From assembly GCA_964016885.1 (NCBI GenBank), contig OZ024754.1:8742001-8806000 (forward strand): a stretch of 64,000 nt of DNA. Reading direction: 5' to 3'. The notes under the pieces are model-generated. The model was not told where the DNA came from, did no database searches, and was given only the letters and a program-made list of their open reading frames with translations. The position numbers and the translations under genes were made by a program. Numbering within the stretch: the stretch's first letter is position 1; each line of letters starts with the position of its first letter. Shown piece after piece: positions 30,669-60,118 of the stretch. This stretch comes from Eledone cirrhosa (Eukaryota).

Positions 30669-30727
<59 letters not shown>

Positions 30728-30853
30728 GAAAGTATAGAAATTATTGTGAGCGTGAAGCCAACGGTATTTCATAAAGTATGACCCCGACGGCAGAGCTCAA
30801 GCCGTTTCGACGGCTATTTCTGGATATATATATATATATATCATTATCATAGC

Positions 30854-42731: not shown

Positions 42732-42746
42732 GAGGAGGCCTGAATG
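42732..42746 (-). CDS. Candidate MAST microexon (15 nt from TAG acceptor, or 8 nt, 42732-42739, from internal CAG)
   Basis: Minus strand ttcttcttcctttctttgtatttctag|CATTCAG|GCCTCCTC|gtaagt: long pyrimidine tract, two AGs 7 nt apart, consensus donor, in unique sequence. Frame logic fits neighbouring exons. No homology evidence. Confidence 0.55.
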
Positions 42747-44630: not shown

Positions 44631-44775
44631 GTGTGAGCCCCAGGTTCAATCGGGGGTAACCACAGTAAGTAAGGTACTCAATACATTAGTAGAGTGTAAA
44701 CAACAAATTTAATATTTCATTCGAATGAAACAGTTATAGTCCTGTAGAAAGCATTTCTATATTAAATTTGTTACA

Positions 44776-48237: not shown

Positions 48238-48412
48238 TGTTTAACATCTATCTTCCACGCTAGCATGGGTTATCAATAAGTGGCCGTTACTTTCCTGGTG
48301 ATTTCTTCCAAATGAAACAGTTCTAGTCCTGTAGAAGCTATTTCTATATTAAATATTTATACTCTGCTTTGTATTGAGTACCTTACGGTGGTTACCCCCA
48401 ATTGAACCTGGG

Positions 48413-49134: not shown

Positions 49135-49829
49135 TAATCTACCTCACTTGTCCCATGGACTGAGTGCTCTAGCACTACGGATATTACCTTCCAGTATTCT
49201 ACCACTATATATATATATAAAGAATGAATAATAACAGGTAGACATCATAATTAGTAGATTCTGCTCTGACGATACAATGCTTTAAGCTCTGACGAATCAC
49301 TGCTTTAAGCTGTACTAATAATAAATATTTGCTCTACGGATTTATATATACTTTTTTTATTATATATATATGTACAATCCTTATTGAACCCTCTTGGGGT
49401 TCTGGTCTTCATAATAACTATTATTACTATCATCATCACAGTTTTACGTCCGTTCTTCCATGCTAGCATGGGTTAGACGGGTTGTCCTGTTGTGGGCAGT
49501 GTCTGGTCGGCTGACCATGCCTTGCTTATACAGGAACTGATTTTGGCTTGATTTATATATATATATATATATATATAAATGAAAAGTATAGAAATTATTG
49601 TAGCAAGAAGCCAACAGTATTCCATAACATATAAGTGACTATAGCGTCAAAATAGGAAAATAGTTAACGTAAGATGTGGGAAAAATAATTCAAACTCAAT
49701 TCAAAAAGAATCAGGATATAGATTCATCCAACAGAATTTAGTGAAATCCAGAGAAAAATCAATAGAGCCTTAACTCATGATAAAATAAAGTTTAAAATAC
49801 TCATCCTTCATTTTGGAAAAACTACAAAT

Positions 49830-49911
49830 ACTCTGTATAGTCTTGAAAAGACTATTTCACGAAAACTTTCAGTGGGGATGGTCACGGTTGGAATTCGATC
49901 CTCAGCAGAGC
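49830..49911 (-). ncRNA. Type I hammerhead ribozyme, intact core, complete stem III
   Basis: GCUCUG-CUGAGGA-U-CGAA...UUCG-U-GAAA-UAGUC-UUUUCAA-GACUA-UA^CAGAGU. Stem I 6 bp, stem II 4 bp after a U.U pair, stem III UAGUC/GACUA, AUA cleavage triplet (cut between 49836 and 49835). Confidence 0.85.
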
Positions 49912-49917
49912 TCAACA

Positions 49918-49956
<39 letters not shown>

Positions 49957-58323: not shown

Positions 58324-58631
58324 AACACAAAGAACATTTGTATAAAATGCTATTTTAAAATGTCTAACCTGAGTTGTGAGGAGAGTTGCATCGATGTAAA
58401 AGTGTAGGCGAAGATCCAACAGCTATAACCGATCGTCTTCCATGAGAACGACTGTGAAGTAAATGAAAAACATTGGAGAAATTATTAACAAAAATAACGA
58501 AAAAAAAAATTTTTCAAAAAAAAAATATTTTAAATTCTTGGAATTAGCAAAGTAAATTCCATCGAAGTGAATTGGATGTAAGGGAAGTAACTCTAGAAAC
58601 CATTTTGTGATATTGAAGAAAATTAATTCGC

Positions 58632-60029: not shown

Positions 60030-60118
60030 CATACTTGCTGAGAGGGATGGTGCAGACTGACCCAAAACAGAATTGTGCATCCGTAATAAGTTTGTGCTCT
60101 CAGAATTGCTGGAAATAC
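60030..60118 (-). CDS. MAST: Internal coding exon of a MAST-family (microtubule-associated serine/threonine) kinase, N-terminal region
   Basis: Minus strand: polypyrimidine acceptor tctttctctttgatag, 89-nt exon (phase 1 to 0) encoding (G)ISSNSESTNLLRMHNSVLGQSAPSLSASM, donor GTAAGT. Matches the MAST motif SNLVRMRNQSLGQSAPSLTAGL recalled from vertebrate MAST2/4. Confidence 0.92.

What the first reader, a model, noticed from the sequence alone, without database searches (positions are those of the whole stretch)
49578..49920. Monomer-competent hammerhead (full stem III) sense to the MAST pre-mRNA
Seen: a ~340-bp island between two (TA)n tracts carries, near its 5' end on the minus strand, a hammerhead with 6-bp stem I, 4-bp stem II after a U.U pair, and stem III UAGUC/GACUA with AUA cleavage site. 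Its other end (aaatgaaaagtatagaaattattgt...gaagccaac) recurs at about 30723-30772. Unlike the minimal PLE type it should not need dimerisation (inference). It lies in the intron between the 59164 exon and the candidate 42732 microexon, so cleavage could affect long-isoform splicing, as proposed for intronic amniote hammerheads.
Basis: partly seen in the sequence, partly recalled or inferred. Interest (0 to 1): 0.75.

Follow-up and report, generated by a model that had tools for sequence, protein, structure and literature searches.

The report
Truncated retrozyme copy in MAST intron
This is one broken-off copy of a roughly 630-base jumping repeat that is scattered through this animal genome and carries a predicted self-cutting RNA motif; it sits in an intron of a kinase gene, likely as a recent passenger and not as a regulator.

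Summary
The hammerhead is really there. It is type I with an intact core, a 6-bp stem I, U·U plus a 4-bp stem II, a 7-bp stem III, and a predicted cut after A49836. The island is not unique. It is the 3' 343 nt of a ~633-nt non-coding unit. An exact 19-mer from its 3' end occurs 1,541 times in the genome, and one head-to-tail array has 47 units. All 55 loci sampled by their 3' end share that end, have variable 5' ends and mostly lie in (TA)n. Subfamilies down to ~73% identity keep the core, with two compensatory changes in stem I. This fits a non-LTR retrozyme, likely moved by Penelope-like elements; no helper was linked by sequence. The 30725-30774 match is a 50-nt stub of a sister subfamily. 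The host intron is 58368-42747, and one spliced contig joins across it and includes the 15-nt microexon. This copy differs from the family majority at 6 of 343 bases, so it is young and unlike the ultraconserved amniote intronic hammerheads. Cleavage is untested and stem II is predicted to be marginal.

The parts
49578..49920 (-). 5'-truncated copy (about unit positions 291-633) of a ~633-nt non-coding hammerhead repeat (non-LTR retrozyme, subfamily A); fixed family 3' end at 49578
49830..49911 (-). Type I hammerhead: stem I 49911-49906/49835-49830, core CUGAGGA 49905-49899, U·U 49898/49859, stem II 49897-49894/49863-49860, GAAA 49858-49855, stem III 49854-49848/49844-49838, predicted cut between 49836 and 49835
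49864..49893 (-). 30-nt loop II, well conserved in the family, with a possible inner GUG/CAC hairpin; function not shown
49553..49577 (.). (TA)n tract at the fixed 3' end; the inferred insertion target
49921..49945 (.). (TA)n tract at the truncated 5' end
30725..30774 (-). 50-nt 3'-end stub of sister subfamily B, without the hammerhead, in the next intron
58369..58451 (-).
42732..42746 (-). 15-nt in-frame MAST microexon directly downstream of the host intron; absent from the cuttlefish protein P0003
59164..59192 (-). 29-nt MAST exon (KDLSLSRKG)
60030..60118 (-). 89-nt MAST exon

Best explanation
The island is a 5'-truncated copy of a ~633-nt non-coding repeat with an intact type I hammerhead motif (a non-LTR retrozyme), likely pasted into a (TA)n tract of a MAST intron by a Penelope-like reverse transcriptase and likely a neutral passenger there. 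Shown: the copy number, the unit, the arrays, the fixed 3' end, the variable 5' ends, the (TA)n context, the kept core and stem I covariation, and the intron position. Inferred: source arrays are transcribed; the hammerhead cuts multimers to unit length, perhaps followed by circularisation; a GIY-YIG/RT protein nicks (TA)n and starts reverse transcription at a fixed internal site 258 nt 3' of the cut; synthesis stops at a variable point. This copy ran about 85 nt past the cut site and stopped about 9 nt beyond stem I, which is why the hammerhead sits at its 5' edge. It lacks the upstream ~290 nt of the unit and has no neighbouring unit, so it could cut once but could not release a unit or a circle.
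For:: all 40 scored candidates (of 4,121) align over 336-343 nt at 96-100%; 1,541 exact hits of a 3'-end 19-mer, control 0; 233 and 242 exact hits of two largely non-overlapping core patterns; a 47-unit head-to-tail array (46 full, 1 partial, period ~634); of 55 loci chosen by the 3' end, 55 end at the fixed end, 54 have TA 3' of it, 48 have TA at the 5' side, and lengths run from 37 to 1,020 nt; core intact in 40 of 46 distinct copies; N7 is the variable core position (G25, U12, C8, A1); subfamilies 73-76% identical keep the motif; 2 of 6 stem I pairs change on both sides (13 cells; 0 of 500 shuffles reach this); the genome holds RT plus GIY-YIG elements with open frames of 938 and 1,025 aa, whose 3' ends abut (TA)n where printed; a 5,121-nt spliced contig joins exon 58369, the microexon and the next exon.
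Against: No autonomous element shares clear sequence with the unit (best 22-27-nt matches at E 0.004-0.04; translated matches E>=0.1), so the helper is inferred. No two-armed inverted structure (1 of 113 loci has inverted pieces, with the 3' ends facing), and a PLE-like 3' tail was seen at one locus only (L029; a pattern for it found 0). Cleavage is untested and stem II is predicted unstable. The diverged copies were found with a pattern that requires the core and part of stems II/III, so only stem I, the 3' side of stem III and the cut site are unselected there. The spliced contig is from one run, of a sample coded differently from the three genomic-looking runs, and I did not test whether that individual carries this insertion. 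Spliced RNA shows that splicing occurs, not that its level is unchanged.
Confidence: 0.85

Rival explanations
1. One reading: this copy cuts MAST pre-mRNA co-transcriptionally, about 7.1 kb before the 15-nt microexon, and measurably changes microexon inclusion or long-isoform output (incidental, or early exaptation).
For: Sense orientation, intact core and long stem III. The microexon is real and is absent from the cuttlefish protein. There is a precedent: the CPEB3 ribozyme lies 9.9 kb before an exon, has a half-life of 2-3 min and alters its mRNA (PMC10919898, passages).
Against: It is a young copy of a mobile family, with a private C>U that weakens stem I. The active fold is about 1% of the predicted ensemble in isolation and less in context. 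At the ~0.1/min measured for the mussel retrozyme (PMC7229834), only about a fifth would be cut in the ~2 min of transcription to the microexon (my estimate, using mammalian elongation rates). Splicing can proceed on a discontinuous nascent transcript (exon tethering, as cited in PMC5126111). Spliced product exists.
Confidence: 0.07
2. The unit is the pseudo-LTR or 3' UTR of an autonomous Penelope-like element that I did not find, and the island is an ordinary truncated PLE end.
For: Same end architecture as PLEs. In Xenopus, 21 of the 22 TEs matched by retrozyme families were PLEs (bioRxiv 10.64898/2026.07.22.740005). I examined only 30 short and 20 long GIY-YIG loci (partly the same places) out of 10,597 candidates.
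Against: Full units sit head to tail with no ORF, up to 47 in a row. Subfamilies down to 73% identity keep the same ~620-635-nt unit, and none of 12 diverged loci has a PLE ORF match nearby.
Confidence: 0.06
3. The hammerhead is a non-functional look-alike inside an ordinary repeat.
For: No Rfam match. RNAalifold on 42 copies predicts a rival hairpin in place of stem II. Only one of nine predicted Xenopus retrozymes cut in vitro.
Against: All core positions are present in the right order, variation is concentrated at N7, there are two compensatory stem I changes, and position 10.1 switches between U (U·U) and A (A-U). A U10.1·U11.1 start of stem II is a known natural variant (PMC3088659).
Confidence: 0.02

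Closest known systems
Metazoan non-LTR retrozymes (Cervera and de la Pena 2020, PMC7229834; Li, Clavereau and Pollet 2026, bioRxiv 10.64898/2026.07.22.740005)
   Same: Non-coding, low-GC (32%) unit with one type I hammerhead, in tandem arrays and as dispersed copies, in a genome with autonomous PLEs.
   Different: The unit is ~633 nt (170-400 nt in the 2020 paper; within the 51-972 range of the 2026 preprint). Stem III is 7 bp, against the 1-2-bp palindromic stem usual in metazoan type I motifs. Loop II is 30 nt. Most copies are 5'-truncated with a fixed 3' end. Circular RNA is not shown, and no homologous pLTR was found.
Penelope-like elements and their non-autonomous partners (Craig et al. 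2021, PMC8557442; Frangieh et al. 2024, PMC11167929)
   Same: Partial tandems, microsatellite targets, a fixed internal 3' end downstream of the hammerhead, and read-through of the cut site (unprocessed RNA was the dominant template for the Anolis PLE in vitro).
   Different: No ORF. No inverted upstream arm in my sample and a tail at one locus only. The hammerhead is full rather than minimal; a local autonomous PLE (L134) carries a minimal motif with a palindromic stem III.
Fungal and protist PLE hammerheads with a large helix III (Cervera and de la Pena 2014, PMC4209133)
   Same: Type I, long stem III, no recognisable stem I/loop II contact. The fungal one cuts as a monomer (0.16/min at 1 mM Mg2+).
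   Different: Here in an animal non-coding repeat, with a U·U first pair of stem II and a large loop II. Activity is untested.
Amniote intronic hammerheads in RECK, C10orf118/CTCL and DTNB (PMC6155905, PMC3088659)
   Same: Type I hammerhead inside an intron.
   Different: Those are isolated motifs conserved at orthologous introns across birds and mammals. This one is a young member of a high-copy mobile family, still embedded in its element.

Membership tests
Type I hammerhead ribozyme | Conserved core C3-U4-G5-A6-N7-G8-A9, G12-A13-A14-A15.1, U16.1-H17 | tested here: met
   All present in the window copy; intact in 40 of 46 distinct copies.
Type I hammerhead ribozyme | Three helices around the core, stem I open-ended | tested here: met
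   Complementarity for all three; two double-sided changes in stem I. Stem II is predicted marginal (p=0.01) and has no double-sided change.
Type I hammerhead ribozyme | Stem I/loop II tertiary contact or pseudoknot for fast cleavage | tested here: inconclusive
   Only 4-bp A/U- and G·U-rich candidates without covariation.
Type I hammerhead ribozyme | Match to an Rfam hammerhead model | tested here: not met
   No hit at gathering score or at E<=10. The 30-nt loop II may be the cause (inference).
Type I hammerhead ribozyme | Site-specific self-cleavage | not testable with these tools
   Only contigs were available for this organism.
Non-LTR retrozyme | Head-to-tail repeats with a type I hammerhead in consecutive units | tested here: met
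   47-unit array, most units with the core; several partial tandems.
Non-LTR retrozyme | Non-coding, low GC | tested here: met
   GC 32%; longest stop-free frames are 85 aa (A) and 154 aa (one B copy, antisense), with no significant Pfam hit.
Non-LTR retrozyme | Co-occurrence with autonomous PLEs | tested here: met
   RT plus GIY-YIG frames of 938 and 1,025 aa.
Non-LTR retrozyme | Homology to a PLE pseudo-LTR | tested here: inconclusive
   None in the GIY-YIG loci examined, a small part of 10,597 candidates.
Non-LTR retrozyme | Expression as unit-length linear and circular RNA | not testable with these tools
   No raw RNA reads; contigs cannot show ends or circles.
PLE-mobilised non-autonomous element | Fixed 3' end, variable 5' truncation, partial tandems, microsatellite target | tested here: met
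   55 of 55 share the end (chosen by a motif near it); 54 of 55 have TA 3' of it. Independent check: 25 of 27 loci chosen by the core also reach it.
PLE-mobilised non-autonomous element | 3' tail extension and inverted 5' arm | tested here: inconclusive
   One 71-nt extension (L029); tail pattern 0 hits; no head-to-head arm in 113 loci.
Amniote-type conserved intronic hammerhead | Isolated motif, not part of a young high-copy repeat | tested here: not met
Amniote-type conserved intronic hammerhead | Conserved at the orthologous intron across species | not testable with these tools
   No related genome is held.

The most novel reading that the evidence does not exclude
The family's insertions record rolling-circle reverse transcription of a ~633-nt circular RNA by a Penelope-like enzyme. 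Synthesis starts at one internal site 258 nt after the ribozyme cut, runs through the religated cut and sometimes goes round more than once. None of 55 3'-end-selected loci stops at the cut, 16 of 55 cross it, and neighbouring units of one insertion share rare variants about 20 times more often than units of different loci (13 against 0.6 expected). This step is proposed in the retrozyme papers I read but not shown there. Uncut multimeric transcripts or gene conversion could give the same pattern.
Probability: 0.4. Interest if true: 0.55.

Novelty: new member of a known kind. Interest (0 to 1): 0.3.

Why it matters
As a locus it is ordinary: one of several hundred hammerhead-bearing copies. 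As a family it adds a long-lived cephalopod retrozyme lineage (subfamilies 73-98% identical) with an unusual hammerhead: full stem III, U·U or A-U at the first pair of stem II, and a 30-nt loop II that Rfam misses. Its insertion ends allow a test of whether retrozymes are copied from circles or from uncut multimers. If the insertion is polymorphic, this copy would also be a natural test of whether a stray intronic ribozyme changes inclusion of a microexon.

Tried and rejected
Rfam: no hammerhead match. Helper search: BLASTN and TBLASTN of the unit against 30 short and 20 long GIY-YIG loci and 12 diverged family loci gave no convincing link; the hits in L130, L132 and L143 are separate insertions of the family beside PLEs. 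A 154-aa antisense frame in one B copy has no significant Pfam match and only E~0.2 to PLE proteins; rejected as a coding remnant. Pseudoknot or stem I extension: none supported. A-to-I editing scars, a lead from earlier notes: no strand bias (A>G 36, T>C 51; 3.2 and 3.6 per kb). Two-armed inverted insertions and a second fixed end, also leads from earlier notes: not found. Sequencing runs: no RNA holder listed. Run X4 behaves as spliced RNA and its contigs touch 29 of 30 bins of a tandem locus, but contigs cannot show strand, ends, level or circularity, so this is not used as evidence of retrozyme expression. A tRNA-derived SINE reading (GGAUCGAAUUCC resembles a B box, recalled consensus) was dropped by eye and not tested with a tool: the unit extends ~290 nt further upstream and that stretch is stem II. 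A sequence look-up of earlier findings returned nothing.

Full report
OBSERVATION. The minus strand of 49920-49578 holds a type I hammerhead: stem I GCUCUG/CAGAGU, core CUGAGGA, a U·U pair, stem II CGAA/UUCG around a 30-nt loop, GAAA, stem III UAGUCUU/AAGACUA with a UUC loop, and AUA with the predicted cut after 49836. My descriptor found this one motif on either strand of the window. Rfam gives no hammerhead hit. The 30725-30774 match is real (88% over 51 columns).

IT IS A REPEAT COPY. A search of the window's genome scored 40 of 4,121 candidates; all 40 align over 336-343 nt at 96-100%. In the 30 loci fetched, the homology stops at one 3' end followed by (TA)n but continues upstream for variable distances, and many loci hold a partial second unit. 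The unit is ~633 nt, 32% GC, with no credible ORF. The 30725 stub belongs to a sister subfamily B, about 86-89% identical. An exact 19-mer near the 3' end occurs 1,541 times. Two core patterns give 233 hits (A type) and 242 hits (mostly other subfamilies); these are exact-match lower bounds. One locus is a 29.6-kb array of 46 full units and one 5'-truncated unit. The window copy differs from the column majority of 46 copies at 6 of 343 positions, one of which turns the distal stem I G-C into G·U; its nearest sampled copy is 2.2% away. On the clock used for Octopus vulgaris repeats (JC 0.09 = 25 My; PMC13282606, passages) this would be roughly 5 My. That is a rough inference from another species' calibration.

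INSERTION ANATOMY (duplicate loci dropped: L003, L037, L050, L086, L089, L153, L168, L177). Among 55 loci chosen by the 3' end, all end at the fixed end, 54 have TA 3' of it and 48 at the 5' side, and lengths run from 37 to 1,020 nt. Among 27 loci chosen by the core, 25 reach the same end, which removes the selection on that end. The end lies 258 nt 3' of the predicted cut. None of the 55 has its 5' end within 10 nt of the cut and 16 cross it, so a cut linear monomer was not the usual template. Against a pure circle model, three multi-unit loci (L008, L009, L022) begin 7-12 nt after the cut in their upstream unit, a weak hint of templates that start at the cut. Adjacent units within one insertion differ at 217 of 5,395 compared positions (27 pairs) and share 13 rare variants against 134 unshared; pairs from different loci predict 0.6 shared. 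This points to a common template per insertion, but a homogeneous multimer or later gene conversion would do the same. There is no A>G bias and no two-armed structure.

IS THE HAMMERHEAD MAINTAINED? The core is intact in 40 of 46 distinct copies; mean departure is 1.6% at core positions against 4.0% in the 3' part, and N7 is the variable position (most of these copies were chosen by overall likeness to the window copy). On 42 copies the support is weak: one double-sided change, with 8-9 of 500 shuffles as high, and RNAalifold prefers a rival hairpin to stem II. Adding older subfamilies (73-76% identical; found with a pattern that fixes the core and parts of stems II and III) gives two double-sided changes in stem I, G-C/A-U and U-A/A-U, in 13 cells, 0 of 500 shuffles; position 10.1 is A (pairing) in 10 and not pairing in 10 of 20. 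Relatedness inflates such counts, and each change is probably one event. A U10.1·U11.1 start is a known natural variant (PMC3088659, passages).

WOULD THIS COPY CUT AS A MONOMER? Stems I and III form in the isolated 91-mer (p=0.99 each), but stem II has p=0.01 and the active 2D fold is 2.3 kcal/mol above the MFE; in 251 nt of context stem I drops to 0.05. These models ignore core tertiary energy. No stem I/loop II contact was found. A fungal PLE hammerhead with a long helix III and no recognisable contact does cut as a monomer (PMC4209133, passages), the mussel retrozyme cuts at ~0.1/min (PMC7229834, section 14), and eight of nine Xenopus elements did not cut (preprint). My estimate: about even odds of slow monomeric cleavage.

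HOST GENE. DUF1908 exons lie on the minus strand 7.6-12 kb before the window. The cuttlefish MAST protein P0003 maps to exons at 60118-60030, 59192-59164 and 58451-58369 and then to an exon 1.7 kb before the window. A 5,121-nt contig of run X4 covers only that last exon; its loose ends read into the DUF1908 exon on one side and into the 15-nt microexon 42746-42732 joined to the end of exon 58369 on the other. The chain is in frame. Whether that sample carries the insertion was not tested.

HELPER. The genome has many RT plus GIY-YIG elements (10,597 candidates, 150 scored), some with frames of 938 and 1,025 aa and, where printed, 3' ends at (TA)n. One family carries a minimal hammerhead with a palindromic stem III (L134). 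None of those examined shares clear sequence with the unit. Mobilisation by a PLE is inferred from the footprint and from the Anolis PLE, which nicks AT-rich DNA, starts internally and uses mostly unprocessed RNA (PMC11167929).

COMPARISON. It works like, and meets the genomic criteria of, a non-LTR retrozyme; RNA-level criteria could not be tested. It fails the criterion of an isolated conserved motif that marks the amniote intronic hammerheads (PMC6155905, passages). In Xenopus 42-44% of retrozyme copies overlap introns, so an intronic position is unremarkable. Searches for 'hammerhead, octopus, ribozyme', 'octopus, Penelope, retrotransposon, genome' and 'retrozyme, cephalopod' showed no description of this family in the listings. 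The supplement of PMC7229834 could not be read, preprint supplements are closed, and one file of PMC4209133 was not searched, so an earlier listing cannot be excluded. Earlier scan notes describe several other retrozyme families in this genome (unchecked), none matching this sequence.

PAPERS SEEN. 10.64898/2026.07.22.740005: parts 1-3 of 5. PMC7229834: abstract, sections 13, 14, 17 and passages. PMC11167929: parts 1-2 of 4. PMC8557442, PMC4209133, PMC3088659, PMC6155905, PMC13282606, PMC5126111, PMC10919898: passages only. Hammerhead numbering and the B-box consensus are recalled.

VERDICT. Real hammerhead motif, ordinary locus, new member of a known kind. Interest 0.3.

Noticed in passing
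window 42746-42732 (-): A 15-nt in-frame MAST microexon is present in a spliced contig and absent from the cuttlefish protein; it replaces a Gly with AFRPPR just before SPMDSP, so it may be alternatively spliced.
   Followed up: partly
L180-L186 (G000:C2:378112536-378142132): A 47-unit array of a third subfamily with a shorter stem III; its units repeat in higher-order patterns, suggesting local DNA-level expansion.
   Followed up: partly
window about 48290-48340 (+) and 44723-44750 (+): Pieces of a different hammerhead-like repeat, antisense to MAST, in the same intron; one has a mutated core, the other is truncated. Intact versions with a U·U first pair of stem II occur in several other loci.
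   Followed up: no
L131/L132, 3' UTR of the 938-aa PLE family: By eye, a minimal hammerhead with a U3/A8 core variant and a palindromic CCGG stem III about 150 nt before the (TA)n end; my script did not recover it.
   Followed up: no
L134, 385 nt after the stop codon: A minimal sense hammerhead with a U·U first pair of stem II and a palindromic stem III in an autonomous PLE family.
   Followed up: partly
window 30775-30825 (-): The subfamily-B stub is fused to a piece of another common (TA)n-associated repeat.
   Followed up: no
unit positions about 385-555 (window about 49820-49650): A long imperfect rod is predicted in subfamilies A and B and in the alignment fold; whole-unit circular folds have z -2.1 and -3.5 (30 shuffles). 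No covariation support.
   Followed up: partly
L013 unit positions about 180-190: A TGACGTCA palindrome (CRE-like, recalled) in the 5' part that the window copy lacks; older subfamilies do not keep it.
   Followed up: no
L135 6842-7807 and L149 6758-7816: Open frames unlike the other PLE proteins, possibly of the Naiad type (recalled, not tested), beside C-terminal GIY-YIG elements; (TA)n tracts often hold several nested elements.
   Followed up: no
window 37086 (+): Another abundant (TA)n-flanked repeat end, often in inverted pairs, seen in about 15 of the fetched loci.
   Followed up: no
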